This document shows, piece after piece, positions 5,640 through 46,707 of a stretch of DNA of 60,820 nucleotides. The stretch's first letter is position 1; every line of letters begins with the position of its first letter. Source of the stretch: a virus (lineage: Duplodnaviria > Caudoviricetes); the IMG/VR virus record IMGVR_UViG_3300016667_000092, positions 1 to 60,820 of that record; one strand, given 5' to 3'. The translations under genes were made by a program, and so were the position numbers. Below the pieces are notes generated by a model. That model saw only the letters and a list, made by a program, of their open reading frames with translations. It was not told the origin of the DNA and searched no databases.

Positions 5640-5650
5640 TGATTTTTATT

Positions 5651-7132
5651 TTACTTTTGTTCGTAGCTAGGAGGTTTAAATCCTAATTCCTCAAGCGTTT
5701 GAAGTGCAGTTTTCTTTTCAGGAATTGTAGTTTTACTTAAAGCTGTTGTCTCAGTATTCAACTTATTACTCTTTGTTCTACGAGCACCTCTCACGTAATC
5801 CTCAACATTCCCCTTGCCTCCTAATCCTGATACAGCAGATCTAATCCAATCATCTTTTGTAACTAATGCATTACCATCATCAGTATAAAAATTTATAGGT
5901 TTAGTACTTCCATCTGTATATGTAATAACTACACCATCTGTCCTTCTATCAACCTTAGCAACATTGGGTAAGTTATTGAAATAAGTTTGAGCAGCTTGAA
6001 CTTGTTCAGGTGTTCCGCTATACAAATATCCCAACATTGTTCCAAAGTCCTGAGAATCTCTAGCATCCTTAGAGTAAGCAAGAGTAGCAGCGTCAGCTCT
6101 TGGCTCAACGAATGTGCTAATCTCCTCCTTGCGCTTCAACATCTGTTCGATCTGACCCTTCATAAAATCTTTAACGGCAGCTTTCTGATCCTTAGTAAAC
6201 TGCGGGGAAGCCATATTAGTAGAAGGATCTATTCTTAATAGAATAAGATTAGGGTTCTTGGCAGCTTCCGTTTCATCGTAAGTATAGTCATACTCCTTAC
6301 CTGTCTTTCTATCAAAGCCAATATCCTCAGTGAGGATTGAAGATACATTATAGGGAACTTGTAGATTAGACTCAATAGCATCATCTACGGCTTTCTGATA
6401 ACCCGGACGAAGCATAGCATCCTCAATGGTAATAACCTGACCTGCTCTTGTAGTACTACCTCTTCTAATCTCAGCATCTATATACGAAGCCAAACCTGTA
6501 GCAATTTGCTCATTAGCCTGACGAGTATTAAACTTATCAAACTTGCCTTTAATTCTGTTACGAAGTTCATTAACAGATGCCACATCATTAGTTAATTCAT
6601 ATACCCCTTGCTCATTCTTCTTCATCTTACCTACGTTAACCGTATAGTCAGTAGGATTGATTAATGCTTTTGATTCATTGAAGTTTGCGAACCCTTCTAC
6701 GCTAGCCATAAGGAATGACTCAAGAGATTGAGACTCTCCTTTCTTGAAACGCTCCATCTTATCGGCATATTCTGCTTGGTATTCCTTAGCAAGATTGAAC
6801 ACCTGATCAGTTCCGTCAACAAGGTTCTGTCTCATAATGAGATAGTCCTTCAACTTTAACTGACCTGACTTTAATAATCTATCCTGAAGCAGTCTTGCTT
6901 GGGTTGCATCATTGGCATAGTTCAATGTCCAAGTATTAGCACCTGTGTGTTCTCCCGTAGGGGGAGATGCCAATACTTTACCATACTGTCGAGAAGCTTC
7001 ATCAATGGCAGCTTTCTTTTGCTCCCTGATCTTGTCTTCTTCTTTGAGCATATCGGTAACATCCCTACCTACTTCAGCCCAATTTATTTGACTGTCAGCG
7101 TTTCGCTCAGCGTATTTATAAAATGTTGCCAT
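5651..7132 (-). CDS. Putative ejection/internal virion protein
   Basis: 493-aa helical ORF between the ejection-like gene and the giant gene; podovirus synteny. Confidence 0.55.
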   Translation of the reverse strand: MATFYKYAERNADSQINWAEVGRDVTDMLKEEDKIREQKKAAIDEASRQYGKVLASPPTGEHTGANTWTLNYANDATQARLLQDRLLKSGQLKLKDYLIMRQNLVDGTDQVFNLAKEYQAEYADKMERFKKGESQSLESFLMASVEGFANFNESKALINPTDYTVNVGKMKKNEQGVYELTNDVASVNELRNRIKGKFDKFNTRQANEQIATGLASYIDAEIRRGSTTRAGQVITIEDAMLRPGYQKAVDDAIESNLQVPYNVSSILTEDIGFDRKTGKEYDYTYDETEAAKNPNLILLRIDPSTNMASPQFTKDQKAAVKDFMKGQIEQMLKRKEEISTFVEPRADAATLAYSKDARDSQDFGTMLGYLYSGTPEQVQAAQTYFNNLPNVAKVDRRTDGVVITYTDGSTKPINFYTDDGNALVTKDDWIRSAVSGLGGKGNVEDYVRGARRTKSNKLNTETTALSKTTIPEKKTALQTLEELGFKPPSYEQK

Positions 7133-36856: not shown

Positions 36857-37137
36857 AATGTATTAGATTCATCGTCAATATCAAAGTGGTCCTCCACGAA
36901 TATGGGAGTTCTGTCCCCAAAGTCAACATCCTTCAGGCTGTACTCCACAAAGTCTACCGCGTCCATGTAGTCATAGCCTTTGTCCACAAGTATCTGTATG
37001 CACTTCTTCACCGAGTATACCAACACTAAAGTCTCAGCTTCTACCCCAATGACCGCATCGTCAAAACCCTCAGGCTTGATGAACAACTCATCGGGATAGA
37101 AGTCCACGATCTTAGACAGTAGCGTTTGCTTGCTCAT
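36853..37137 (-). CDS. Conserved hypothetical protein
   Basis: GFDDAVIGV...LVYS.KKCI.IL...AVDF..Y...G.RTPIFV. Confidence 0.65.
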   Translation of the reverse strand: MSKQTLLSKIVDFYPDELFIKPEGFDDAVIGVEAETLVLVYSVKKCIQILVDKGYDYMDAVDFVEYSLKDVDFGDRTPIFVEDHFDIDDESNTL

Positions 37138-38740
37138 AGCTTCTTGCCATTGTGATGATAGCATTAGTTGATAGTATCGTGGTAGCCACACTCACCGCGT
37201 TTTGCAAAGCTGAGCGTGTCACCTTCAGCGGATCAATGACACCCATCTCAATGAGGTCACCCATCTGTCCTGTCTTCAGGTTATACCCATGACCCACAGG
37301 AACCTCGCCATTGTAGACAGCACTTGGTTTAAGTCCTGCGTTTATTAGTATCTGTTGGAACGGAGCCATGAGCGCACTAACTAAAATCTGAAGTGCCACC
37401 TGATGTTCAACACTTTTTTTCACCTCATCGATAGTTGAATACAACTCAGCACTCTCATCAAGCAAAGCCTTACCCGCACCGGGAAGTATACCTTCCTCAA
37501 GCGCAGAGCGCACCGCACACACCGCATCGTCAACACGGTCGTACAACTCCTTCTGCTCAAGATCAGTGTTTCCACCTACGTAGATTACACCAATGCCTCC
37601 TGTCAGAGAAGCAATACGCTCAAGGATGAAGTCCTTGTCCTGCTTCTTCACCGCCTCACCATGCGCCTTCCAAAGCTGAGCCACCCTCTCCTCAATCTTC
37701 GCCTCGTCAACTTTCTTGTCACTCTTCAAGATGATGGTCTTGTCCTTACCCACCACCACCTTAGCAGCATGACCTAGATCAGCGTAAGTAATTATACTTA
37801 GATCATCGCCCGTCTTCTCGCTGAAGTAAGTAGCACCAACACTCACCGCAATGTCCTGCATCAGCTCGTGCTGACGGTACCCAAAGCTAGGAGGTTGTAT
37901 GGCGCATATCTTCAAGTTGTTCTTAAGCACGTTGGCAGCTAAAGTATTCACCACGTTCTTGTGGCAAGGGGATATGATCAGAAGCTTCTTACCCTCTTGG
38001 ATGATTGGCTTCAGTACGTTCTCAATCTGAAGTATGTTGGCAATCTCAATGTCAGCCACTAGCACCATCACATCCTCAAGCACACACTCGTCTCTTCCCT
38101 GATCGTTGATGAACAGCGGACTGAGGTAGCCCCTGTCAACCTTCAACCCTTTAGTGGTCTCGGCATAGGTCTCAAAGCTCTGAGACTTCTCCACCGTCAC
38201 AATACCTTGACGGCCCACGTCCTGATATACCTCAGCAATAATCCTTCCAATCGAAGGGTCGTTGTTGGCAGAGATGGTCGCCACATCCAACATCATGTCA
38301 TCGCTAAGCTCTCTACTCTTGGCCTTCAACTTCTCCACCACCGTATCGGATAACTCCACCAACGATCTCAACACCTCGGTCACATTGTGCCCTTCTTTGA
38401 TGTGATCAAGACCCGACAGTACCAACGCCTCAGTCAGAACGATCGCGGTCGTAGTGCCGTCGCCTGCGCTTGTAGCGGTACGCTCAGATGCCTCCTTCAT
38501 AATCTTCACCGCCAAGTTCTCGACAGGGTCAATTAGATCAACAGCCTTCGCAACTGTGACACCATCCTTTGTAACCGTAATGCCGTGTGTGTGATTAGGA
38601 GCCTCAATCAAAACTGTGTTACCGCTAGGACCTAGCGTACTCTTCACAGCCTTGGCAATCTTCTTGATGCCTGTAACAAGCTTGGCTCGCCCGTTTGAAT
38701 CGAAGTGCAACTCCTTCGGTGAATAGCCCATTGAATCCAT
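37112..38740 (-). CDS. groEL: Chaperonin GroEL
   Basis: VKSTLGP.G, TKDGVTVAK, AGDGTTTA, EEGILPG.G, GVIDPLKVTRSALQNA. Confidence 0.95.
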   Translation of the reverse strand: MDSMGYSPKELHFDSNGRAKLVTGIKKIAKAVKSTLGPSGNTVLIEAPNHTHGITVTKDGVTVAKAVDLIDPVENLAVKIMKEASERTATSAGDGTTTAIVLTEALVLSGLDHIKEGHNVTEVLRSLVELSDTVVEKLKAKSRELSDDMMLDVATISANNDPSIGRIIAEVYQDVGRQGIVTVEKSQSFETYAETTKGLKVDRGYLSPLFINDQGRDECVLEDVMVLVADIEIANILQIENVLKPIIQEGKKLLIISPCHKNVVNTLAANVLKNNLKICAIQPPSFGYRQHELMQDIAVSVGATYFSEKTGDDLSIITYADLGHAAKVVVGKDKTIILKSDKKVDEAKIEERVAQLWKAHGEAVKKQDKDFILERIASLTGGIGVIYVGGNTDLEQKELYDRVDDAVCAVRSALEEGILPGAGKALLDESAELYSTIDEVKKSVEHQVALQILVSALMAPFQQILINAGLKPSAVYNGEVPVGHGYNLKTGQMGDLIEMGVIDPLKVTRSALQNAVSVATTILSTNAIITMARSYEQANATV

Positions 38741-38760
38741 AGTAGATTTAATTTAAGACC

Positions 38761-38768
38761 CAAAGATA
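38761..38768 (-). promoter_or_regulatory. Bacteroidota -7 element for groEL
   Basis: TATCTTTG 21 nt upstream of ATG. Confidence 0.6.
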
Positions 38769-38770
38769 CA

Positions 38771-38786
38771 AGTTTCACGTGAAACT
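38771..38786. promoter_or_regulatory. parS-like palindrome
   Basis: AGTTTCACGTGAAACT, perfect palindrome; central 14 bp identical to canonical parS TGTTTCACGTGAAACA. Confidence 0.65.
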
Positions 38787-39081
38787 AAAAATATCCATCC
38801 TGCAACGGATCTGACTCTTGATCGTCAACCCTACGATAACCCTCCCTCCACAAAACATTGATGAGGTCAATACTCATCCTCTCCACCTCTTCCTCACTCG
38901 CCTTCGGAAGTAACAGGTGTATCACCTCATGAGTCAGGATCTCCAAATGCTTCTTCCCCTTCAGCTTCTCATCCAACTCAATCAAGAGCTTGCTCTCATC
39001 AGCAAGACCCCACACATTCTTATTGCCTAGCTTAAGCTTCTTTAAATACTTCACCCTTATTCTTCGTCTTCGTTTAGCCAT
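38785..39081 (-). CDS. Small HExxH metallopeptidase-like protein
   Basis: WGLA...IELD..L...HLEILTHEVIH. Confidence 0.6.
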   Translation of the reverse strand: MAKRRRRIRVKYLKKLKLGNKNVWGLADESKLLIELDEKLKGKKHLEILTHEVIHLLLPKASEEEVERMSIDLINVLWREGYRRVDDQESDPLQDGYF

Positions 39082-39110
39082 AGCACCTCAAATATACCAA
39101 ACAAATAGCT

Positions 39111-39262
39111 CATGTCGGAATGTCAAACTTCTTCCTTCCCTACTCTCTCTCTATATTCCCTTTATATATATATTTTTTTCCCACTAGAAACCTTCTTTAA
39201 AATCGACATTTTCGACATTACTATTAATAATCAATTATTTAGATCTTTCAAATCGACATAAA
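39111..39262. promoter_or_regulatory. Origin-like element 1 (TGTC/CGACA boxes flanking an AT-rich spacer)
   Basis: TGTCGGAATGTCA...TTAAAATCGACATTTTCGACAT...TAATCAATTA...AATCGACAT. Confidence 0.55.
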
Positions 39263-39311
39263 ATCAGGAATAAATAATAAATAATCTATCATAGTAAAAG
39301 AAAATCGGGAA

Positions 39312-39343
39312 TAAAAAGGGGGCAACTAGAAAGAAGCCCCCCT
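39312..39343 (-). terminator. Intrinsic terminator
   Basis: G/C-run stem (GGGGGGC...GCCCCCC) followed by T-tract on minus strand. Confidence 0.65.
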
Positions 39344-39368
39344 CACTAAACCTAAACTATGAAAACAA

Positions 39369-39593
39369 TCACCGAATCTTTTTGATCTCCTTCTCCACGT
39401 CAGCCATCATCTCACCTCTGTAAAACGCTTCAGCCATACGTTGGGTCTTAGCCTCACGCTTCAAAGCCTTACGATCAATAGCAGCCTTTGTAATCGGAGC
39501 CATAGCATCTCCAATCTGCTCATTAATCAACCGACCATTACGAACAGTCAGTCCGCTATATCTCATCGAATTCATTCCATCTAGTATTTTCAT
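39369..39593 (-). CDS. Hypothetical protein
   Basis: 74-aa ORF with TATATTTG promoter at 39609-39616. Confidence 0.6.
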   Translation of the reverse strand: MKILDGMNSMRYSGLTVRNGRLINEQIGDAMAPITKAAIDRKALKREAKTQRMAEAFYRGEMMADVEKEIKKIR

Positions 39594-40079
39594 GTTGTAT
39601 TGTTTTTACAAATATACGAAGTTTAGATATGCGTATTGTTGAGGCTATATATACATTTTGCGACACGGCTCCCGGACCGAAAGTCATTTTTTAAAAAAGG
39701 GGTTGGGGGGTCGATTTCCTTTTCCCCCTGCAAAGTTTTTGGCGTTTTCCCCACAGCCCCCTGAACCGGACCGACAAGGTGAATGAATCAGACCGACCCG
39801 TATGTCCTGCGTCCTGCATCCCCTGTCTGTGCACCCGTTTTTTGTCCCTTGCACCCGTTTTTCTCCCAAAGAGAGACTAAAGCACGAAGAGGGCTACCCC
39901 TCCCCCATAGCTTGACCCTTCAGATGCCTGATGGGGAGCGAATCCTCACAATCTACGCGTTTCTAAGTATAAATACGTGTTTTTAAAAAATAGTTGGGGT
40001 GTGTTGATTGTTTTATCAGAATTGTACATATATTGCACTCGAATTGATTAATTAACTAACAAAACAAACACTACACACT

Positions 40080-40778
40080 ATGACAAACTTACTTGCAATT
40101 GAGGAATCATTCCTTAGCAAATCAGAGGTGAAACAAGCGTTAGACCTTACCAATGTTCGGTCTCTTCAAAGACACCTTCAGAACGGACAGAAAAAGAAAT
40201 TCGAGCAGACCCTTGCATTGAGTGGCATTGTTGCGAAGGGTTATCAGTGGTTCAAAAGTGAGGGAAAAGCAATGTTAGCCGAGCAGGGTCTTGAGTGGAC
40301 GGCAAAGGACTTCGCATCCAAAGTTTACGGGTGGAACAAGAGTTACCTGTTCAAGGTGGTGAAAGCAGGTGAGACTGAAGCGGAAAAGATTGAGACATTC
40401 AAGACCAAGTGTGACGAGATGGAGCGTGAAGGTAAAGAGCCCAACAGGACATTGGAGGGTCTACTCAAGTGGCTAAGTACGTCAGCCACCGAAGGTGGAG
40501 AAGGTGATGGTGAAGGTGGAGAAGGTGAGGAGACCCAAGTTGAGGAGAGACAGAAAGCTATCATGACTTTTGCCTACAAAGTTGATGGGGTGAGCGTATC
40601 CTGTCGAGTGATGTCTAACGGTGAGGTCAAGACCACAAACAGCAGGGAGGAGTTAACAATTGCTATTAAGACCCTGTTAAGATACGTTGAGACCCCACAG
40701 GATGACCCTATGGGAGACTATGAGGACAGATTGGAGTTTGCTATGGATGCTGAAGAGGAGGACGACTACATTGAATAG
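40080..40778 (+). CDS. First early protein, hypothetical
   Basis: 232 aa, A-rich translation start, TATATTGC promoter-like element upstream, Gly/Glu linker. Confidence 0.7.
   Translation: MTNLLAIEESFLSKSEVKQALDLTNVRSLQRHLQNGQKKKFEQTLALSGIVAKGYQWFKSEGKAMLAEQGLEWTAKDFASKVYGWNKSYLFKVVKAGETEAEKIETFKTKCDEMEREGKEPNRTLEGLLKWLSTSATEGGEGDGEGGEGEETQVEERQKAIMTFAYKVDGVSVSCRVMSNGEVKTTNSREELTIAIKTLLRYVETPQDDPMGDYEDRLEFAMDAEEEDDYIE
40160..40175. repeat. 16-bp palindromic motif, 1-mismatch variant (intragenic)
   Basis: GTCTCTTCAAAGACAC. Confidence 0.7.
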
Positions 40779-40793
40779 TCTCTTTGAAGAGAC
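40778..40793. repeat. 16-bp palindromic motif (perfect, intergenic)
   Basis: GTCTCTTTGAAGAGAC. Confidence 0.9.
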
Positions 40794-40796
40794 CAT

Positions 40797-40841
40797 GAGC
40801 AGGGACGGTCTTCAGGTAGGTTCGAGTCCTACCCCTGCTCC
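40797..40841 (+). ncRNA. tRNA-like minihelix (acceptor stem plus T-arm, no D or anticodon arm)
   Basis: GAGCAGGG...GTAGG-TTCGAGT-CCTAC-CCCTGCTC. Confidence 0.6.
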
Positions 40842-40878
40842 TTTCGTATAAATTTTGTATAAAACTAAACACTACACT

Positions 40879-41787
40879 ATGCAAAACGCAACTACAGGCA
40901 TCACCTACCTAAAAACAGGTGACAGGCACAGAGCAATCGTTAACGATTACCACAGGAAGCCGTACCCAAGAGAGATGCAAAAGACGATGTTCAATGTTGA
41001 CATCGCAGGACTCAAGATGGCTGACAGAAGGAATGTTCACCTTGTTGGGGCTGAGTTTGTCTCAAAGTTCACTATCGGTATGGAGGTTGAGAAAAACAGA
41101 CTTAGCAGGGGTGCAGTCAAGGAATATGAGCTGTTCTGTGGGTTTGAGAGAGACTCCTCCTGCGGTTATGAGGCAGTCACTAACATCCTGCCGTTACTAC
41201 CTGCGGGAATGTGGAGGAACAAAGTCTTTGATATGATGTTCAAAGCAAGCAGGATAATTGAAGACCAATACAGCCCGTCCAATGATCGCTGTGGTGGGCA
41301 CATATCAATCGGGGTTCGTGGGATGACCGGTGACACGATTATGGGAGTGATTCGACCCTTCTGTGGCATCCTGTATGCTATCTTTCATAAGAGACTGAAT
41401 ACACATTTCTGTGAGCACAATCCGCGGATGTTGCACAGAAACGATGCTGACTTCTACAACTATCCCACACACAGCAAGTACAATGTAGCACAGCCGAAGA
41501 CGGAATGTCTTGAGTTCAGACTCCCTTCACGTTTCCAATCTGTAAAGCAGATGATGAGAAGATACGAGTTGATGTACGAGATTACCAACTTTGCTTTCAA
41601 CACCCCAAGAGGTTCACATAAGATGCTCCTCAAGAAGGTGAAACCAATCCTGATGTCAATGTATGACGGCAATGAAGAGAAGGTGAACGAGCGTATCAAG
41701 ATGGCTGAGGACTTCAGGGAGTACATTCTGAACGGAACAATCACAGACCTAATCAGACCCTATGTACGAGACAGATATAGAAGATAA
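40879..41787 (+). CDS. Amidoligase (COOH-NH2 ligase, Amidoligase_2-like)
   Basis: IGMEVE, ERDSS..YEAVT, CGGHI, KY, LEFRLP motifs. Confidence 0.75.
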   Translation: MQNATTGITYLKTGDRHRAIVNDYHRKPYPREMQKTMFNVDIAGLKMADRRNVHLVGAEFVSKFTIGMEVEKNRLSRGAVKEYELFCGFERDSSCGYEAVTNILPLLPAGMWRNKVFDMMFKASRIIEDQYSPSNDRCGGHISIGVRGMTGDTIMGVIRPFCGILYAIFHKRLNTHFCEHNPRMLHRNDADFYNYPTHSKYNVAQPKTECLEFRLPSRFQSVKQMMRRYELMYEITNFAFNTPRGSHKMLLKKVKPILMSMYDGNEEKVNERIKMAEDFREYILNGTITDLIRPYVRDRYRR

Positions 41788-41809
41788 TTGGTAGTGTAGT
41801 GACTCCAAT

Positions 41810-41840
41810 GGAGGTGAGTCTCCTCAAAGAGACTCCCTCC
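41810..41840 (+). repeat. Hairpin containing the 16-bp palindrome variant (41818-41833)
   Basis: GGAGGTGAGTCTCCTCAAAGAGACTCCCTCC; near-identical to the minus-strand hairpin at 17563-17597. Confidence 0.8.
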
Positions 41841-41893
41841 TTCTGTAGAGTGGTGAGTGCCACTCCTGATGAGTCCAAAAGGACGAAACAGAA
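41841..41893 (+). ncRNA. Type III hammerhead ribozyme
   Basis: TTCTG-TA | GAGTGG-tgagtg-CCACTC | CTGATGA | GTCC-aaaa-GGAC | GAAA | CAGAA; all core nucleotides and three stems present; predicted GUA cleavage after 41847. Confidence 0.92.
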
Positions 41894-41912
41894 ACACTAA
41901 AAAACTATAGCT

Positions 41913-42128
41913 ATGAAAGTAATGTATTCAAAGTATGTCAACTCCTGTGCAGACTCAGGCAAGTTGATTATGAGAGGCGACAAAATCTACTATGACTTCA
42001 GGACTAAGAAAGCCTATCACCCTGACTCTGACTTCGTGAGAATCTACGAACAGGAAAGAGAACGTCAGGCGGTGATGTCCTACATTGATGAGCAAGAGAT
42101 GTTGATGTATGAAAGAGGCTATCATTAA
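41913..42128 (+). CDS. Small early protein
   Basis: MYSKY...CADSGK.I.RGD.I.YD; A-rich start. Confidence 0.65.
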   Translation: MKVMYSKYVNSCADSGKLIMRGDKIYYDFRTKKAYHPDSDFVRIYEQERERQAVMSYIDEQEMLMYERGYH

Positions 42129-42133
42129 GGCTG

Positions 42134-42180
42134 TATGGCTGAGGTGCACAGCCTGTCGAAGGCTGTTCACTCAGACCATA
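42134..42180 (+). ncRNA. Long imperfect hairpin (possible RNase III site)
   Basis: Nested pairing TATGG/CCATA, CTGA/TCAG, GTG/CAC, ACAGCCT/AGGCTGT. Confidence 0.45.
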
Positions 42181-42236
42181 GTCAAGACCAAGAAAAGCAA
42201 ACCTATCTGTCCACATTGTAATAAAATTAACCCACA

Positions 42237-42422
42237 ATGAAAGTCTATACTATCGCAATGGTTCGGGTCTACAAGACCTACCTTCAGTACGAAGCTAACA
42301 CACAGGAAGAGGCATTGGAAATGTTTAACAAGGATACGGACAAGTATGCAGTAGAACTTGAGCAATGCAACGCATATGAAATATCAGTAACAATAGTAGA
42401 CGAAGATGATTCACGAATTTAA
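42237..42422 (+). CDS. Small early protein
   Basis: YEANTQEEALE motif; operon context. Confidence 0.6.
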   Translation: MKVYTIAMVRVYKTYLQYEANTQEEALEMFNKDTDKYAVELEQCNAYEISVTIVDEDDSRI

Positions 42423-42618
42423 AACACCAATCGCGGTTAAGACTCCTCATGGGAATGGCGATGCAATCCTGTTCATTGACTATGGTCTCAATGTCAACAG
42501 CGTGTGGGTCGTTAGACTTCAAGGAGGACAGGTCAAACACTATTATTCAGATGACATCCTAATCTATGGCAACCCAATGGATGGTCGTGGATGGGATATT
42601 AAAAATGAAACACTATGA
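42406..42618 (+). CDS. Small early protein
   Basis: PIAVKTPHG.G.AI.FIDYG....VWVV. Confidence 0.65.
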   Translation: MIHEFKTPIAVKTPHGNGDAILFIDYGLNVNSVWVVRLQGGQVKHYYSDDILIYGNPMDGRGWDIKNETL

Positions 42619-42869
42619 AAGACGCAAAACTATTGGAGCAATTGGGATACCAAGACATGGAGTCCCTGTTCGAGGACATCTTAGGCAAGAGAAAGGTAGG
42701 CGAGTTGATTGAGGCGAGGCAACTATACTCAAAGCTTAGCGGTCAACAGAGAGTAGCTTTCTATCAGTACGTGGAGGAGAGTTACTTCTACTCTGTGATT
42801 GAGGATGAGCATGAGTTTCCTCTTGAATATCGCAACCTGCTGTTAGACTTCGTTGACATAACAGACTAA
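42615..42869 (+). CDS. Hypothetical protein
   Basis: ATGA-coupled ORF. Confidence 0.6.
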   Translation: MKDAKLLEQLGYQDMESLFEDILGKRKVGELIEARQLYSKLSGQQRVAFYQYVEESYFYSVIEDEHEFPLEYRNLLLDFVDITD

Positions 42870-42876
42870 AAATAAA

Positions 42877-42908
42877 TTTGGCAGTGTGCAATTTTTGTAT
42901 TATCTTTG
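42877..42908 (+). promoter_or_regulatory. Bacteroidota sigma-70 promoter
   Basis: TTTG-N20-TATCTTTG, consensus -33/-7. Confidence 0.8.
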
Positions 42909-42926
42909 TATAAATAACCTACAATT

Positions 42927-43115
42927 ATGGAAAACAATCTACCACTTAACGAGTCCGAACGCAATGAGATATTGCAGGACATCATTGACCGTATGCTCTA
43001 CCTGAAAGGTGACGAGCGTAATCGTTTCCTCTTTTACCTTGATGCACTAAGAGATGTATTCAAAGTCAACGTACAAATCGTGGACGGAGTACGTGTGTAC
43101 AAGGTATCCAAGTAA
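42927..43115 (+). CDS. Hypothetical protein
   Basis: ORF directly after promoter. Confidence 0.6.
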   Translation: MENNLPLNESERNEILQDIIDRMLYLKGDERNRFLFYLDALRDVFKVNVQIVDGVRVYKVSK

Positions 43116-43136
43116 TCAATCTTTAATCAGGACTCT

Positions 43137-43152
43137 GTCTCTTTGAAGAGAC
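43137..43152. repeat. 16-bp palindromic motif (perfect, intergenic)
   Basis: GTCTCTTTGAAGAGAC within a GGAC...GTCC extended hairpin. Confidence 0.9.
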
Positions 43153-43173
43153 TGTCCGCAAATCAAATCAACT

Positions 43174-44262
43174 ATGTGTGTAATCATTATCAAGCAGAAG
43201 AACAGAACCCTATCCCCTGAGATTGCCAAGACATCAGGACGGATGAATCCCCATGGACTCGGCATCATTTGGTTAGACACCTTTGAGGTGACCTACCACA
43301 AGTCAAGCGAATACAGGAAGCTACTCACAGACAGACCCTACATTGCCCACTTCAGATACGCGACCGTCGGTGCTATCGGCAGAAGCAACACACACCCATT
43401 CCAATGCGGGTCAAGCAAGCACGAGTACCTGATGATGAACGGAACAATCAAAGGTCTCGGCAATGCCAAAGACTGCGACAGCAAAGTACTTGCCTGTCAA
43501 TTGGGAGACAAACCAAGACACACGTGGAAGGCTGAACTGTCAAGTCATCCTTGTCGGTTCGTGACTATCAATGTCCGCAACAAAACCTATCAGATATACA
43601 ATCAAGAACTGTGGACTAAGCACGACGGCATATGGTTCAGTAAGGACGAGGTGATTGAGGATAACTTGGTAGCTGTGTATGGCACACTTCGCAAGGGACA
43701 TGGCAACTACAACTATTACCTGACCGACTCAAAGCATATCGGCAAGGGATATACCAAAGAAAAGTACCCACTAATCATTGATGGTCTACCCTATCTGATT
43801 GAGAAGAGTGGACAAGGTCACAACGTGGAGGTGGATGTGTTCAAAGTAAGCAACAGCGTGATGAGGCAGCTCGATGTATTGGAGGGTCATCCCAATTGGT
43901 ACAAAAGAAAGAGAGTACCCATCAAGGTAGGTGGTAAGGAGTTGATGTGTTGGATATACTTCAACAATACAGTAGACTACAAGGGCAAAGAGATGCACGT
44001 GAGATACGAGAAGCCTAAGCCTGTGACTGTACCCAAGAACAGACTGTCCTATGATATGCCAATCACGAAGCGACCTGCCCAACGTACATTCTACTTTGAG
44101 GATATGGTAGAGGATTTCAATAATGAGTTTGCGGTGGAGAGTGAGAAGCCTGTGTGCAGGTACTGCTATCAAGATCTTGAGCACGACTACTTCAACAACT
44201 ATCATTGCAACGGATGCGACTCTTGGTTCAGCGACCATGAGATTAACAGACGAGTATACTAA
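43174..44262 (+). CDS. Class II glutamine amidotransferase fused to gamma-glutamylcyclotransferase (AIG2-like) and C-terminal Zn ribbon
   Basis: N-terminal MC, NPHGLG, HFRYATVG, NTHPF, NGTI; VAVYGTLRKG, LDVLEGHP.WY; CxxC...CxxC. Confidence 0.85.
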   Translation: MCVIIIKQKNRTLSPEIAKTSGRMNPHGLGIIWLDTFEVTYHKSSEYRKLLTDRPYIAHFRYATVGAIGRSNTHPFQCGSSKHEYLMMNGTIKGLGNAKDCDSKVLACQLGDKPRHTWKAELSSHPCRFVTINVRNKTYQIYNQELWTKHDGIWFSKDEVIEDNLVAVYGTLRKGHGNYNYYLTDSKHIGKGYTKEKYPLIIDGLPYLIEKSGQGHNVEVDVFKVSNSVMRQLDVLEGHPNWYKRKRVPIKVGGKELMCWIYFNNTVDYKGKEMHVRYEKPKPVTVPKNRLSYDMPITKRPAQRTFYFEDMVEDFNNEFAVESEKPVCRYCYQDLEHDYFNNYHCNGCDSWFSDHEINRRVY

Positions 44263-44283
44263 CCATTACTATAAACAGGAGGG

Positions 44284-44299
44284 GTCTCTTCAAAGAGAC
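44284..44299. repeat. 16-bp palindromic motif (perfect, intergenic hairpin)
   Basis: GGAGGG-GTCTCTTCAAAGAGAC-TCCCTCC. Confidence 0.9.
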
Positions 44300-44321
44300 T
44301 CCCTCCACAAATTAAATCAAC

Positions 44322-44471
44322 ATGACAATCCAAAATCTAATCGAACAAATCCAAGACAACGCAGAGTTTCTTATGACTACAGATGGTGATGACATTGACT
44401 GCATCAGCCTAGAAAACTTAGAAGGAATCCTGTCAACCTATTTAAATCAAACTGTAAAATTAGCACGATGA
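44322..44471 (+). CDS. Small acidic protein (49 aa)
   Basis: MTIQNLIEQIQDNAEFLMTTDGDDIDCISLENL...; ATGA overlap with next gene. Confidence 0.6.
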   Translation: MTIQNLIEQIQDNAEFLMTTDGDDIDCISLENLEGILSTYLNQTVKLAR

Positions 44472-44938
44472 CAATTAAGAAAGGAACACACGCGCCATGT
44501 AGACTACCAAGACTACTTATTGGAACAAGTTCACTTGTAATGAGCGTCAGCTTTGATAAGTCTTGCATATACGACATTGGCTCTGAGCAAGGAGATGTCA
44601 ATAAATTATTTGGCATAGGGTACTTCCCGCATCATAGATTCAAAAGCGTAAGAGTAGGGTGGAATTATAATCTACAAACTAAGCTTATAGACTTATTCTC
44701 GTATTGGTATGCAGAAAACAATCTTACATTTAATTATCTTGAAAGTACTGAGCTTTATAAGAATAACATTATTTCAATTGATATAGAGAAAGATAAGCAC
44801 ACCATCCATACTCCTTCTGTTATCCAAGAAATATATCTGCCAAGTAATGGCAATGGATATTTACTTAGAGAGTATTTTGGAGGACAGACTAAAGCTCCGC
44901 ATGACATAAGTATTAATTCACATTTAGTAATAATTTAA
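44468..44938 (+). CDS. Hypothetical beta-rich protein (AT-rich)
   Basis: DVNKLFGIG, SVRVGW, YFGG..KAPHD. Confidence 0.6.
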   Translation: MTIKKGTHAPCRLPRLLIGTSSLVMSVSFDKSCIYDIGSEQGDVNKLFGIGYFPHHRFKSVRVGWNYNLQTKLIDLFSYWYAENNLTFNYLESTELYKNNIISIDIEKDKHTIHTPSVIQEIYLPSNGNGYLLREYFGGQTKAPHDISINSHLVII

Positions 44939-44940
44939 TT

Positions 44941-45342
44941 ATGACAATCAAAGTAAAGCAAGAGATTACAATCACAAGGAAAATCCTTGAGGATATATTT
45001 GTGACAGCTATCGAAGGGGGTAGTAACTATTGGTACTTCTTTAATGATGCAGCCTGCGATAAGGTGCGAGATGCAATTCCTGAACACGTAGACCCATGCT
45101 TTTCAACGGCAGTACTTCGCGCAGTATTAGACAAGAGAGTAGCGATAGATGTGTCTGATGTAGAGACAGATGAAGTCATTGGTTCGTTAGATGTCAACCT
45201 GTTTAAGCGTAGACTTCAAGATCTATTTAATGATGAGTCATGCAGACAAGCGTTACTCAACATGATAAACGAAGAGGGTGACGCATCAGATGCAGACATC
45301 GTGTTTCAGTACCTGATTATGGGAGAGGTAGTATACGGATAA
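44941..45342 (+). CDS. Conserved hypothetical protein
   Basis: TAIEGGSNYW ... DASDAD..FQY.IMGEVVYG. Confidence 0.7.
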   Translation: MTIKVKQEITITRKILEDIFVTAIEGGSNYWYFFNDAACDKVRDAIPEHVDPCFSTAVLRAVLDKRVAIDVSDVETDEVIGSLDVNLFKRRLQDLFNDESCRQALLNMINEEGDASDADIVFQYLIMGEVVYG

Positions 45343-45356
45343 TTAAAACTAAAGCT

Positions 45357-45533
45357 ATGAACATCACCTGTAAAGTATGCAAAAAGATAAAGCCGGAGAA
45401 GGACTTCAGACATAAACACTTCGCACCTACCATGTGCATCCAATGCCATAAGGAAAGACGAAGCGAAAAGTACCGTAAGAATCCGAGACAGAACTCTACT
45501 AAATGGATGGATATTATAATTGGTAAATCATAA
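45357..45533 (+). CDS. Small Zn-finger protein (58 aa)
   Basis: CKVCKKIKPEKDF...CIQC. Confidence 0.6.
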   Translation: MNITCKVCKKIKPEKDFRHKHFAPTMCIQCHKERRSEKYRKNPRQNSTKWMDIIIGKS

Positions 45534-45543
45534 ATCAACTACA

Positions 45544-45807
45544 ATGAAAAGACAGACATCAATGGAATGGTTAGAGCAGGAACTACAGAACGTATACCAA
45601 AAAGAATGGAAGTTACCAATAGGATACACACTACACCTGTTGGGTCAGGCTAAGAAGATGAACGAAGAGGAAATCAAGGAGGCATACAATGATGGACACG
45701 AGGATGCCGACATAAAGAGTGGAGTATACGATGGCTTTGATATCAGACTCTCAACTCTTGCGAGTGAATACTATGAAAAGAAATTTAAAAACGAACAGCA
45801 TGGTTAA
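45544..45807 (+). CDS. Hypothetical protein (paralog of 52405..52623)
   Basis: QTSMEWL...QAKKM.EE.I.EAY...EYY. Confidence 0.65.
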   Translation: MKRQTSMEWLEQELQNVYQKEWKLPIGYTLHLLGQAKKMNEEEIKEAYNDGHEDADIKSGVYDGFDIRLSTLASEYYEKKFKNEQHG

Positions 45808-46003
45808 ACTTATCGTAATCTATTGGGCATTGACAACTATGTACGGGGTGTATTGGTTACTCAAGAACCCTTCATCAGGTGATGACCCTGATTATTTTTC
45901 AATAGCAGATTGCTTGGGATATATATTCCCGTCCGCAACTCTTGCTTGGTTCCTCGTCCCTTTAATGTTATTATCATCAATAAAAATCAAACGTCAGTTA
46001 TGA
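45800..46003 (+). CDS. Small membrane protein
   Basis: Two hydrophobic segments. Confidence 0.55.
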   Translation: MVKLIVIYWALTTMYGVYWLLKNPSSGDDPDYFSIADCLGYIFPSATLAWFLVPLMLLSSIKIKRQL

Positions 46004-46293
46004 AAGACACAATCTTAGAATCAGTGCTTGAGAAGTACAAGCAACGCTCTGAAGCAGGGCAACAGAAGTACAACACAACCTTAGACAGGGAAGACCTGTT
46101 CGTAGTTGAATGGCTTACTCACCTGCAAGAAGAACTCATGGATGCAACCCTGTACATAGAGAAGCTCAGAAGAATCGCAATGAACGGTGAAGCAATGATG
46201 ATATCCAATGAAGCATACAGGAACGCACAGAAGATAGTGATAGATGGGTTTGTATTCGTAAAATATAATGACCTGAATCCATTGCCATTCTAA
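46000..46293 (+). CDS. MazG-like nucleotide pyrophosphohydrolase-fold protein
   Basis: RS..G..KYNTTLDR.D....WL.HLQEELMDA.LY. Confidence 0.6.
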   Translation: MKDTILESVLEKYKQRSEAGQQKYNTTLDREDLFVVEWLTHLQEELMDATLYIEKLRRIAMNGEAMMISNEAYRNAQKIVIDGFVFVKYNDLNPLPF

Positions 46294-46303
46294 TTATTTG
46301 TAC

Positions 46304-46311
46304 TATCTTTG
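46304..46311 (+). promoter_or_regulatory. Bacteroidota -7 element
   Basis: TATCTTTG upstream of 46351. Confidence 0.6.
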
Positions 46312-46350
46312 TACAGAATTTAATTAAATAACTATCTAAATCTAAATCAA

Positions 46351-46707
46351 ATGTTCAACATCCAAGAAGCAATCAGCACCGAGCTGTTCAAACCAAAGCC
46401 CGACACACTTCATCTTAGAGTCATCGAGCAATTGAAAGAGTCAGGTATCTTGACGCTTAAACAATTCTCAAGCACAGGTCGATTCGTTGGAGCAGATACA
46501 TTTACGAAAGAGAACCCTGATGTGTCACTACATAGTAGTTGCACAGACGTAGTGTATTACGTAGGAGGATTCTATGTGCAAGCACTTAAGGATAACACAT
46601 TCTTTGCTGACTTATGCGGGCACAAGATTGTAAACAAATCACTTGATGAGATTGAAGTAATCATTTGGGATATATTCTTAGACAACTTTTTTAATAACCA
46701 AAAATAA
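46351..46707 (+). CDS. Hypothetical protein
   Basis: 118-aa ORF. Confidence 0.6.
   Translation: MFNIQEAISTELFKPKPDTLHLRVIEQLKESGILTLKQFSSTGRFVGADTFTKENPDVSLHSSCTDVVYYVGGFYVQALKDNTFFADLCGHKIVNKSLDEIEVIIWDIFLDNFFNNQK

What the first reader, a model, noticed from the sequence alone, without database searches (positions are those of the whole stretch)
41841..41893. Type III hammerhead ribozyme in the early operon
Seen: canonical core (CUGAUGA, GAAA, GUA cleavage triplet), fully paired stems I (6 bp), II (4 bp) and III, and loops UGAGUG/AAAA compatible with loop-loop contact. It is on the sense strand between the amidoligase and a small gene, and ends 19 nt before the next ATG. Established: hammerheads self-cleave and leave a 5'-OH end. 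Inference: it segments the early mRNA and may stabilise or tune the downstream message.
Basis: partly seen in the sequence, partly recalled or inferred. Interest (0 to 1): 0.75.

Follow-up and report, generated by a model that had tools for sequence, protein, structure and literature searches.

The report
Hammerhead ribozyme between phage genes
A genuine self-cleaving hammerhead RNA sits between two genes of a phage that probably infects Flavobacteria; related phages keep one at the same spot or put a tRNA-like cutting signal there, so it most likely cuts a long message into separate pieces.

Summary
Window 41841-41893 (+) is a complete type III hammerhead with a canonical core and cleavage after A41847. 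Rfam RF00008 scores it 43.7 bits, below the 48.5 cut-off but at E 7e-10 for the genome.

Comparative evidence:
- 32 of 39 related phage contigs hold a hammerhead just after the homologous upstream gene. All are on the sense strand, and all six stem I pairs covary.
- All 55 distinct hammerhead contexts are intergenic. The median gap is 32 nt from the upstream stop and 22 nt to the next ATG.
- In 43 of 51 contexts a strong hairpin, a family-wide 16-bp palindrome, ends within 3 nt of the ribozyme.
- Of the 7 relatives without a hammerhead in this slot, 5 carry a tRNA-like acceptor/T-arm minihelix there instead. This evidence is graded.

I read this as selection for RNA cutting itself. The cut would leave a hairpin-capped upstream mRNA and a downstream mRNA with a 5'-OH, ribozyme-capped end.

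Cleavage, transcription timing and stabilisation remain untested. Hammerheads flanking phage genes, and this processing idea, were published in 2011. It is therefore a new member of a known kind with an informative context. Cultured Flavobacterium phages with a related hammerhead make it testable.

The parts
41841..41893 (+). Type III hammerhead ribozyme, 53 nt. The predicted cut is between A41847 and G41848.
   Evidence: sequence. (RF00008, 43.7 bits, full length). (fold, z -3.99). (R1, 75.5 bits). (covariation in homologues).
41854..41859 (+). Loop 1, a hexaloop of the UN3YN type. Its 5' U and penultimate U are the residues proposed to contact loop 2.
   Evidence: Among 45 distinct homologues the 5' U is kept in 45 of 45 and the penultimate U in 42 of 45. 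The motif definition comes from PMC2632901 (passages read).
41877..41880 (+). Loop 2, an AAAA tetraloop of the RNnA type. Its 3' A is the proposed partner of the loop 1 U.
   Evidence: The last A is kept in 45 of 45 and the two before it in 43 of 45 each; the first position is free. PMC2632901 names AAAA among the commonest loops 2.
41810..41840 (+). Hairpin of 5+7 bp with one bulge that abuts the ribozyme. Its centre, 41818-41833, is a one-mismatch copy of the genome-wide 16-bp palindrome.
   Evidence: the fold of 41788-41930 holds both the hairpin and the hammerhead; z -4.56. (10 palindrome copies in the window against 0.54 expected). (a hairpin ends within 3 nt of the ribozyme in 43 of 51 distinct contexts, against 226 of 2000 random positions).
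41894..41912 (+). A-rich 19-nt leader with no Shine-Dalgarno-like run, between the ribozyme and the next start codon.
   Evidence: In relatives the gap has a median of 22 nt and a range of 16-44, with 45 of 55 between 15 and 30 nt.
41913..42128 (+). Downstream 71-aa ORF of unknown family. It would be the first cistron of the 3' cleavage product.
   Evidence: No Pfam or PHROG family. It is not similar to the ORFs behind the orthologous ribozymes of 21 relatives (best E 4.9).
40879..41787 (+). Upstream gene of 302 aa from the ATG at 40879 (the ORF lister starts it at a TTG at 40855). It is a possible distant Amidoligase_2 relative, and its 3' end would be made by the cut.
   Evidence: The Atlas holds the protein from residue 9, and its nearest clusters carry PF12224 in 12% and 99% of members (feature score 0.97, TM 0.83 and 0.57; a lead only). 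No Pfam hit even at E 10. 44% identity to residues 226-547 of the MW202828.1 protein.
40796..40842 (+). tRNA-like minihelix in the preceding spacer: an 8-bp acceptor-like stem, a GG-containing linker and a T-arm. It follows a palindrome copy at 40778-40793 and is probably a second kind of cutting signal of the same system.
   Evidence: tRNA-Sec 16.7 bits, E 0.59; mascRNA 15.9 bits. (R2, 52.7 bits, a training row). ARAGORN finds no tRNA in the window.

Best explanation
This is an active type III hammerhead ribozyme, transcribed as part of a multi-gene message on the + strand of a roughly 61-kb phage. Its nearest cultured relatives infect Flavobacteria.

Proposed mechanism:
- As the RNA is made, a hairpin (41810-41840) folds, and then the ribozyme folds.
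- Loops 1 and 2 dock. The RNA cuts itself between A41847 and G41848.
- The upstream message, for an amidoligase-like gene, then ends in a stable hairpin plus a 7-nt tail with a 2',3'-cyclic phosphate. That makes it a poor substrate for 3' exonucleases.
- The downstream message begins with a 5'-OH followed by the compact ribozyme body and a 19-nt A-rich leader before the ATG of a small gene. This insulates its translation start and likely its stability from whatever lies upstream.

What is shown: the motif, its conservation, its covariation, its strict intergenic geometry, its association with the hairpin, and its replacement by a tRNA-like element in some relatives.

What is inferred: self-cleavage in vivo, co-transcription of the flanking genes, and the effects on stability and translation.

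My odds are about 0.9 that it is a functional self-cleaving hammerhead and about 0.6 that mRNA segmentation with end protection is its selected role.
For: 1. Motif. The core is canonical and RF00008 aligns full length at 43.7 bits, E 7.1e-10 for the genome. The fold has z -3.99.

2. Positional conservation. 39 related loci were found through the upstream protein, not through the RNA. Of these, 32 have a hammerhead starting 19-163 nt after the end of the protein match.

3. Strand. All 63 R1 hits (55-78 bits) are on the gene's strand; the next best hit scores 17.8 bits.

4. Covariation in 31 sequences:
- Stem I has 6 of 6 pairs changed on both sides and is 100% paired.
- Stem II has 3 of 4 such pairs.
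- The covariation score is 0.685 against 0.212 in shuffles (0 of 500 reach it) and at most 0.135 when partners are slid.
- G-U pairs occur, which fit RNA of the + strand only.

5. Core variation among 45 distinct sequences:
- It is almost confined to the two positions known to be free: N7 (U 42, C 3) and H17 (C 26, A 18, U 1, G 0).
- C3, U4, G5, A6, G8, G12, A13, A14, A15.1 and U16.1 are each 45 of 45.

6. Loop motifs UNmYN and RNnA are met and their key residues are conserved.

7. Geometry:
- 55 of 55 distinct contexts have an ORF start 16-44 nt downstream (median 22).
- For 54 of 55 a long upstream frame ends 20-57 nt before the ribozyme (median 32); one (L040:6459) could not be assessed.

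8. Hairpin:
- One ends within 3 nt of the ribozyme in 43 of 51 distinct contexts, against 226 of 2000 random positions.
- Mean folding energy of the 32 nt upstream is -11.8 kcal/mol against -3.0.

9. Slot exchange. Of the 7 loci without a hammerhead in this slot, 5 show a tRNA-like acceptor/T-arm element there:
- L015, 46.3 bits (a training row).
- L016, 31.5 bits, E 9e-6.
- L019, 22.3 bits, E 0.005.
- L041, 18.3 bits, E 0.078 (all four).
- L018, Rfam tRNA-Sec 21.6 bits, E 0.021.
Conversely, the window's own minihelix slot holds a hammerhead in L010 and L040.

10. Promoter. No TAnnTTTG-type promoter motif lies on the + strand between 39616 and 42873.

11. Analogy. RiboJ, a type III hammerhead plus hairpin, raised downstream transcript about twofold and protein 2- to 10-fold in E. 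coli (PMC6206723, passages read).
Against: - No RNA data of any kind, so cleavage, co-transcription and timing are untested.
- The Rfam score is below the family's gathering cut-off (43.7 against 48.5).
- The closest relative by DNA, MW202828.1, has no hammerhead anywhere. Its two homologous genes are only 58 nt apart, so the element is dispensable.
- Some orthologues carry core changes that may weaken them. L017 has A9 changed to U. 13 of 45 distinct sequences have U10.1/U11.1 in place of G-C, although that mismatch is reported to keep activity (PMC3088659, passage read).
- The 31 sequences used for the pair counts were picked by a descriptor that demanded pairing. The percentage paired is therefore inflated by selection, though the variety of pair types is not.
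- The hairpin is also a DNA palindrome that occurs inside genes and on both strand orientations in the window. A DNA-level role for it cannot be excluded.
- Support for two of the five tRNA-like replacements is marginal: L041 at E 0.078, with no Rfam hit at E 1 or better.
- Several of the 39 loci are near-duplicates, so they are not 39 independent lineages.
Confidence: 0.7

Rival explanations
1. The selected function is 3'-end formation for the upstream gene only. Hairpin plus ribozyme would act as a terminator substitute that fixes a hairpin-capped 3' end, and any effect on the downstream gene would be incidental.
For: - The ribozyme's position is conserved relative to the upstream gene, while the downstream genes are unrelated to one another (best E 4.9 against 21 others).
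- The hairpin abuts the ribozyme's 5' side in 43 of 51 contexts.
- In five whole relatives all 9 of 9 hits lie in the amidoligase/GGACT gene cluster.
Against: The distance from the ribozyme to the next ATG is just as tightly kept (16-44 nt in 55 of 55). That would not be needed for a pure 3'-end device. In cultured Elemovirus phages the related ribozyme sits in a divergent promoter region 14 nt before the first gene, with no upstream gene on that strand.
Confidence: 0.15
2. The hairpin-ribozyme unit is mainly a repeated boundary cassette at the DNA level. It would provide homology for swapping small gene modules between phages, and RNA cleavage would be secondary or vestigial.
For: - The genes behind the ribozyme differ between relatives.
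- The 16-bp palindrome is repeated 186 times in 39 loci and 10 times in the window.
- In MW202828.1 the two genes are adjacent, whereas the window has about 1.4 kb with the ribozyme and small ORFs between them.
Against: - Stems covary while the catalytic core is invariant, which points to selection on RNA structure and catalysis rather than on DNA identity.
- G-U pairs fit only the + strand RNA.
- The centre of the palindrome is never TG when a ribozyme follows (0 of 38, against 35 of 186 overall). This is a strand bias.
- Replacement by a tRNA-like element points to cutting as the common property.
Confidence: 0.08
3. The ribozyme is a regulated or down-tuning device. Cleavage would uncouple and destabilise the downstream small gene, or depend on conditions such as Mg2+, time of infection or a protein, rather than stabilise it.
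For: - Perreault et al. raise regulated cleavage for phage hammerheads (PMC3088659, discussion passage read).
- A sub-class with a U10.1/U11.1 mismatch recurs at one slot in relatives (13 of 45 distinct sequences). It could be a slower, tunable form.
Against: The window's copy has a fully canonical core and the loop motifs that give fast cleavage at low Mg2+. No extra domain or aptamer-like insert is present in its 53 nt. No conserved alternative pairing with the flanks was found (mean z 0.13, and 0 of 55 below -2).
Confidence: 0.06
4. It is a chance or decayed hammerhead-like motif with no activity.
For: It is below the Rfam gathering score. There is only one copy in the window, and none in the closest relative.
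Against: E is 7.1e-10 for the genome. 32 of 39 relatives keep one in the same slot with compensatory changes, and the core is perfect.
Confidence: 0.01

Closest known systems
Hammerhead ribozyme type III (Rfam RF00008; viroid and satellite RNAs such as sTRSV, plus bacterial and metagenomic intergenic examples)
   Same: Same core, same three-helix junction open at stem III, a GUH cleavage site, and loop 1 UNmYN with loop 2 RNnA. The resemblance of stem II and loop 1 to sTRSV is partly recalled; PMC2632901 gives sTRSV loop 1 as UGUGCUU and loop 2 as GUGA.
   Different: - It sits in a DNA phage operon, not in a circular RNA replicon.
- It is a compact 53-nt form with a hexaloop and an AAAA tetraloop.
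- It scores below the Rfam cut-off. Only 2 of the 29 R1 hits in the 19 of 39 relative loci that I scanned pass it.
Clustered hammerheads flanking genes in prophages (Perreault et al. 2011, PMC3088659; for example the triple arrangement around ardA in Agrobacterium tumefaciens)
   Same: Several ribozymes bracket single genes or short gene blocks, the bracketed genes vary, and processing of long phage transcripts into shorter mRNAs was proposed there (passages read). Relatives of this phage have 1-5 copies within 9 kb.
   Different: That paper stresses type II forms and does not, in the passages I read, describe three things seen here: an obligatory hairpin on the 5' side, a fixed distance to the start codon, or exchange with tRNA-like elements. 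The window has a single copy.
HHphage of haloviruses HF1/HF2 (PMC3088659)
   Same: It lies a few nucleotides (13) upstream of the start codon of an early gene, and a mapped 5' end lies within 3 nt of the cut (passage read). The Elemovirus copy lies 14 nt before gp59 and the window copy 19 nt before its ATG.
   Different: HHphage is a structural variant that needs high salt or Mg2+ and sits at the start of a transcript. The window copy is canonical and lies between two genes.
RiboJ synthetic insulator (sTRSV hammerhead plus 23-nt hairpin; PMC6206723)
   Same: A type III hammerhead placed just upstream of a translation start. After the cut, the ribozyme body stays on the 5' end of the message. 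It raised transcript and protein levels in E. coli (passages read).
   Different: RiboJ is engineered, and its hairpin lies downstream of the ribozyme. Here the hairpin lies upstream and would stay on the other product.
RNase III processing sites of the T7 early mRNA; tRNA punctuation and t-elements of organelle mRNAs (PMC1920247, search listing and start of abstract only; the T7 case is recalled)
   Same: They work the same way. An endonucleolytic cut between cistrons leaves a hairpin at the 3' end of the upstream message, and tRNA-like structures serve as cut signals for RNase P or RNase Z.
   Different: Those depend on host enzymes, whereas the hammerhead needs none. Here both a self-cutting and an enzyme-dependent signal seem to be used in the same slot of related phages.

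Membership tests
Hammerhead ribozyme (type III) | Catalytic core C3 U4 G5 A6 N7 G8 A9, G12 A13 A14, A15.1-U16.1, and H17 (not G) at the cleavage site | tested here: met
   CUGAUGA at 41866-41872, GAA at 41885-41887, A41888 pairs with U41846, and H17 is A41847. The same positions are 45 of 45 in distinct homologues, except N7 and H17.
Hammerhead ribozyme (type III) | Three helices around the core, with stems I and II closed by loops and stem III open to the flanks | tested here: met
   The Rfam alignment covers model positions 1-54 of 54. The minimum-free-energy fold gives exactly this junction.
Hammerhead ribozyme (type III) | Helices supported by compensatory changes in homologues | tested here: met
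   11 of 16 pairs change on both sides, and the covariation score is 0.685 against 0.212 (0 of 500 shuffles reach it). Caveat: the rows were chosen by a pairing descriptor.
Hammerhead ribozyme (type III) | G10.1-C11.1 pair closing stem II next to the core | tested here: met
   G41873 pairs with C41884. In relatives the pair is G-C in 31, G-U in 1 and U/U in 13 of 45 distinct sequences.
Hammerhead ribozyme (type III) | Loop 1 / loop 2 tertiary contact motif (UNmYN with RNnA; Dufour et al. 2009) | tested here: met
   Loop 1 at 41854-41859 fits UN3YN and loop 2 at 41877-41880 fits RN2A. This is a match of sequence only; docking is not shown.
Hammerhead ribozyme (type III) | Score at or above Rfam's curated gathering threshold for RF00008 (48.5 bits) | tested here: not met
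   43.7 bits, and 0 matches at gathering thresholds. This is a curators' cut-off tuned to the seed, not a biological property. E is 7.1e-10.
Hammerhead ribozyme (type III) | Site-specific, Mg2+-assisted self-cleavage 3' of H17, giving 2',3'-cyclic phosphate and 5'-OH ends | not testable with these tools
Ribozyme-based mRNA processing / insulator module (works-like class, not a curated family) | Located inside a polycistronic transcript, between cistrons, on the sense strand | tested here: inconclusive
   Sense strand and intergenic position are met. Co-transcription is only inferred, from the absence of a TAnnTTTG motif on the + strand between 39616 and 42873.

The most novel reading that the evidence does not exclude
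In this family of probable Flavobacteria phages, a conserved hairpin is followed by either of two interchangeable 'cut here' devices. One is a self-cleaving hammerhead. The other is a tRNA-like acceptor/T-arm minihelix, a likely RNase P/Z substrate. The same intergenic slot holds one or the other in different phages. This would be a phage counterpart of organelle tRNA punctuation. It would also be a natural experiment showing that the selected function of phage hammerheads is simply an endonucleolytic cut that yields hairpin-capped 3' ends and protected 5' ends.
Probability: 0.45. Interest if true: 0.7.

Novelty: new member of a known kind. Interest (0 to 1): 0.5.

Why it matters
The biological role of the thousands of hammerheads in phage and prophage DNA is still called an open question (PMC6155905 and PMC6765202, passages read).

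This locus offers unusually clean comparative evidence:
- A fixed stop-hairpin-ribozyme-leader-ATG layout.
- Confinement to one gene cluster.
- Apparent exchange with a tRNA-like processing signal.

A related hammerhead also occurs in cultured Flavobacterium phages (Elemovirus) whose host is in hand, so the processing hypothesis can be tested directly.

There are two practical points. The Rfam gathering cut-off misses most of this compact phage group: 2 of 29 pass in the loci scanned. And the hairpin-ribozyme unit is a natural template for insulator parts in Bacteroidota, which lack Shine-Dalgarno-driven initiation (this last point is recalled).

Tried and rejected
**RNA evidence.** The look-up of sequencing runs on 40800-43200 listed no RNA holder. 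It gave one coded run of unknown kind, holding 0.21 of the words as contigs. I did not lay it, since contigs cannot show RNA ends.

**Long-range helix.** The fold of 41788-41930 pairs 41788-41800 with the start-codon region. This is not conserved: duplex energies of the flanks in 55 contexts give a mean z of 0.13, with none below -2. Rejected.

**Split gene idea.** I suspected that the 232-aa and 310-aa ORFs were halves of the 574-aa protein of MW202828.1. Only the second matches, at residues 226-547 with 44% identity. The first does not (E 8.8). Rejected.

**Upstream gene family.**
- Pfam: 0 families at E 0.01 and at E 10.
- PHROGs: 0.
- PDB sequences: best E 0.33.
- Only the Atlas gives an Amidoligase_2 lead.

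**Promoter and terminator scans.**
- The sigma-70 and terminator scan of 38500-46500 found no more sites than shuffles: 12 against 17.3, and 6 against 5.8.
- TAnnTTTG is not enriched overall: 61 against 52.3.

- My first descriptor script had an off-by-one error and missed the window's own ribozyme. It was fixed.
- A relaxed regex for minihelices was too noisy: 41 hits against 16 in shuffles. I replaced it with covariance model R2.
- Rfam gave no tRNA-like hit at E 1 or better for the L041 slot.
- The IMES-2 hit over the ribozyme (15.4 bits, E 0.099) is noise.

**Literature.** Four searches turned up no paper describing a hairpin-hammerhead unit, or hammerhead/tRNA-like exchange, in phages. 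Those searches cover open-access text only, and supplements were closed. Perreault's supplementary figures of gene contexts may bear on this claim.
Full report
**What is there**

The 53 nt at window 41841-41893 (+) read as a textbook type III hammerhead:
- A 6-bp stem III (41841-41846 with 41888-41893).
- The cleavage nucleotide A41847.
- A 6-bp stem I capped by a hexaloop.
- The core CUGAUGA.
- A 4-bp stem II capped by AAAA.
- GAA.

Rfam's Hammerhead_3 model aligns over its whole length at 43.7 bits. E is 1.7e-8 in a 351-nt search and 7.1e-10 for the 60,820-bp record. The score is under the curated 48.5-bit cut-off, which is why the default scan of the window lists nothing. The 53 nt fold on their own into the expected junction: -18.7 kcal/mol, z -3.99, and 0 of 200 shuffles fold as well.

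**Homologues**

The window is a complete virus record. I looked for relatives through the protein encoded just upstream (40855-41787), not through the RNA, and obtained 39 loci from viral contigs.

A strict descriptor script found compact type III hammerheads right after the homologous gene in 27 of them. I then built a covariance model (R1). It used 31 distinct sequences: the window's plus 30 from relatives, out of 75 distinct descriptor hits in all loci.
- R1 found 63 hits of 55-78 bits in the window plus the 39 loci. All are on the strand of the gene, and the next best hit scores 17.8 bits.
- 32 of 39 loci have a hit starting 19-163 nt after the end of the protein match; 7 do not.
- Several loci are near-identical. 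There are 45 distinct ribozyme sequences and 55 distinct contexts.

**Covariation and core**

On the 31-sequence alignment:
- 94.4% of cells pair, against 71.6% in shuffles.
- The covariation score is 0.685, against 0.212 in shuffles (0 of 500 reach it) and at most 0.135 when partners are slid.
- All 6 stem I pairs and 3 of 4 stem II pairs change on both sides.
- G-U pairs occur, which fit only the + strand RNA.

The rows were picked by a descriptor that required pairing, so the percentage paired is biased upward. The diversity of pair types is not.

Among the 45 distinct sequences:
- Every catalytic position is invariant except N7 (U 42, C 3) and H17 (C 26, A 18, U 1, never G), apart from one A9-to-U change in L017. 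N7 and H17 are the two positions known to be free.
- The 5' U of loop 1 (45 of 45), its penultimate U (42 of 45) and the 3' A of loop 2 (45 of 45) are kept.
- These are the residues of the UNmYN/RNnA loop-loop motif of Dufour et al. (PMC2632901, passages read), who list UN3YN hexaloops and AAAA tetraloops among the commonest natural forms.

**Anatomy of the spacer**

- In all 55 distinct contexts an ORF of at least 30 codons starts 16-44 nt after the ribozyme (median 22; 45 of 55 within 15-30 nt).
- In 54 of 55 a long frame ends 20-57 nt before it (median 32).
- The leaders are A-rich, without a Shine-Dalgarno run.
- Directly 5' of the ribozyme lies a strong hairpin. It ends within 3 nt of the ribozyme and has at least 7 pairs in 43 of 51 distinct contexts, against 226 of 2000 random positions. 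The 32 nt upstream fold at a mean of -11.8 against -3.0 kcal/mol.
- In the window this hairpin is 41810-41840, and the fold of the whole spacer holds both elements.

The centre of the hairpin is a 16-bp palindrome, GTGTCTT-NN-AAGACAC in most relatives and GTCTCTT-NN-AAGAGAC in the window.
- It occurs 10 times in the window, against 0.54 expected.
- It occurs 186 times in the 39 loci, and 38 of those copies are followed by a hammerhead.
- When a hammerhead follows, the centre is CA, TA or CG and never TG (0 of 38, against 35 of 186 overall). This strand bias, together with wobble pairs in the extended stems, favours an RNA hairpin.
- Copies inside genes leave a DNA-level role open.

The first-stage reader had noted this palindrome separately.

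**What follows the ribozyme**

The small ORFs behind the orthologous ribozymes are not homologous to the window's 71-aa ORF. I compared it with 21 others, after dropping duplicates from the 32, and the best E was 4.9. Many of them look like small membrane proteins. The ribozyme is therefore anchored to the upstream gene and to a variable downstream slot.

**Exchange with a tRNA-like element**

While reading the preceding spacer I found an acceptor-like stem plus a T-arm at 40797-40840, just after a palindrome copy. ARAGORN calls no tRNA in the window.

In L010 and L040 a hammerhead occupies that same slot. Conversely, I examined the 7 loci with no hammerhead after the amidoligase-like gene:
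- Five hold a T-loop-bearing, acceptor-like element there.
- Two (L022, L032) hold hairpins only.

A second model (R2) was built from 9 such elements. It has 12 of 13 pairs changed on both sides, a covariation score of 0.776 against 0.271, and an invariant GG in the linker that recalls the D-loop. In that slot it scores:
- L015, 46.3 bits (a training row).
- L016, 31.5 bits (E 9e-6).
- L019, 22.3 bits (E 0.005).
- L041, 18.3 bits (E 0.078).

L018 has a larger tRNA-like fold (Rfam tRNA-Sec 21.6 bits, E 0.021). L041 has no Rfam hit. The support is thus graded, and two cases are marginal.

If it holds, 37 of 39 relatives carry one of two devices whose only shared property is that they direct an endonucleolytic cut a few nucleotides 3' of the hairpin.

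**Genome and host**

- The + strand block around the ribozyme encodes a GATase/gamma-glutamyl cyclotransferase fusion, a Sak-like annealing protein, an exonuclease, a primase/helicase and a helicase.
- Structural genes and a GroEL gene lie on the - strand.
- 'Early' is plausible but untested.
- The primase/helicase is nearest to MW202828.1 (79% identity), then to Flavobacterium phages of genus Elemovirus (42% over 40% of its length) and other Bacteroidota phages. This fits the leaders that lack a Shine-Dalgarno run.
- In five relatives searched as whole records (5 of the 39), all 9 R1 hits lie in the amidoligase/GGACT cluster.
- MW202828.1 has none, and its two genes are 58 nt apart.
- Two cultured Elemovirus genomes each hold one related hammerhead (42.4 bits). 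It lies in a divergent intergenic region, 14 nt before the first gene of the leftward block.

**Mechanism**

- Shown: a conserved, covarying, canonical hammerhead on the sense strand, in a fixed stop-hairpin-ribozyme-leader-ATG layout.
- From established hammerhead chemistry: the cut leaves a 2',3'-cyclic phosphate on A41847 and a 5'-OH on G41848.
- Inferred, upstream: the upstream mRNA ends in a hairpin with a 7-nt tail and is shielded from 3' exonucleases.
- Inferred, downstream: the downstream mRNA starts with a 5'-OH and the folded ribozyme body. That should blunt 5'-end-dependent decay and isolate the unstructured leader from upstream context.

The engineered RiboJ part shows that such an arrangement can raise transcript about twofold and protein 2- to 10-fold in E. 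coli (PMC6206723, passages read).

**Comparison and novelty**

- Hammerheads that flank genes in prophages, and the idea that they process long phage transcripts, were published by Perreault et al. (PMC3088659, passages read).
- Canonical type III forms in bacterial intergenic regions and metagenomes are noted in PMC6155905 (passage read).
- The role of these ribozymes is still described as open (PMC6155905; PMC6765202).

The element is therefore a new member of a known kind. In the passages I read and in four searches I did not find three things described: the obligatory 5' hairpin, the fixed distance to the start codon, or the apparent exchange with tRNA-like signals. Supplements were closed and subscription journals are not covered.

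Practical note: only 2 of the 29 R1 hits in the 19 loci scanned with Rfam reach its cut-off. R1 matches 45 sites at E 1e-5 or better in 80 of those 120 pattern-selected loci.

**Caveats**

- There are no RNA data.
- The loci are windows of 4-9 kb, so copy numbers are lower bounds.
- Near-duplicate contigs inflate the counts.
- The two models were built from sequences I selected.
- The upstream gene's name rests on an Atlas lead only.

Noticed in passing
window 40796-40842 (+); relatives L006:3930-3976, L015:4890-4938, L016:3902-3948 and 4886-4934, L018:3915-3960, L020:2535-2581, L030:3316-3362: tRNA-like minihelices sit in intergenic spacers, mostly right after a palindrome copy. Each has a 7-8 bp acceptor-like stem, a linker with an invariant GG, and a T-arm with a GTTCGA-type loop, but no anticodon arm. 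Model R2 finds 15 hits at E 0.1 or better, all on the + strand, and one of them is part of a true tRNA. They are likely RNase P/Z signals. The first-stage reader noted the window's copy separately.
   Followed up: partly
window 8261, 17574, 24712, 35100, 40160, 40778, 41818, 43137, 44284, 54134 (16 bp each): A genome-wide 16-bp palindrome occurs 10 times at up to 2 mismatches, against 0.54 expected. Some copies lie inside genes. Relatives use a variant with a compensating G/C swap in both arms: 186 copies in 39 loci, with centre CA 111, TG 35, TA 30 and CG 10. Its function (RNA hairpin, protein site or both) is open.
   Followed up: partly
relatives, e.g. L004:7689-7742, L008:7645-7698, L018:7334-7387, L021:8631-8684, L040:8371-8423: A recurrent hammerhead sub-class has U10.1/U11.1 in place of the G-C pair next to the core (13 of 45 distinct sequences). 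It is found mostly after the roughly 373-codon GATase/GGACT gene and before a 74-76-aa ORF. Its stem I still covaries, so it looks selected. Perreault et al. report this mismatch as tolerated.
   Followed up: partly
NC_055853.1 17866-17920 (-) = L166; MT497078.1 28913-28967 (-) = L165: Cultured Flavobacterium phages of genus Elemovirus carry one related type III hammerhead (R1, 42.4 bits; core CUGAAGA). It lies in a divergent intergenic region, 14 nt before the ATG of gp59. No feature is annotated there in the record.
   Followed up: partly
L003 (MW202828.1) 3134-6134 versus window 40879-44262: In the closest relative the amidoligase-like gene and the GATase/GGACT gene are 58 nt apart, with no hammerhead. 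The window has about 1.4 kb between them, holding the ribozyme and several small ORFs. The 574-aa annotation in that record matches the window protein only from its residue 226, an internal Met. The annotated start may therefore be too far upstream, or the N-terminal part is a different domain.
   Followed up: partly
window 43174-44262 (+): A 362-aa protein combines a weak class-II glutamine amidotransferase match (residues 56-95, E 0.0018, below the Pfam cut-off) with a clear GGACT gamma-glutamyl cyclotransferase domain (residues 166-269, E 3e-21). Together with the amidoligase-like neighbour, this resembles the phage amidoligase/GATase/cyclotransferase clusters described by Iyer et al. 2009 (recalled, not checked).
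   Followed up: no
window 37112-38740 (-): The phage encodes a GroEL-type chaperonin (phrog_5725, E 1e-133).
   Followed up: no
relatives L006, L012-L014, L017, L023-L026, L028, L031, L032, L034, L036, about 2-2.6 kb upstream of the amidoligase-like gene: ARAGORN finds 22 true tRNA genes in the 39 loci, as one to three genes per locus on the + strand. The window has none.
   Followed up: no
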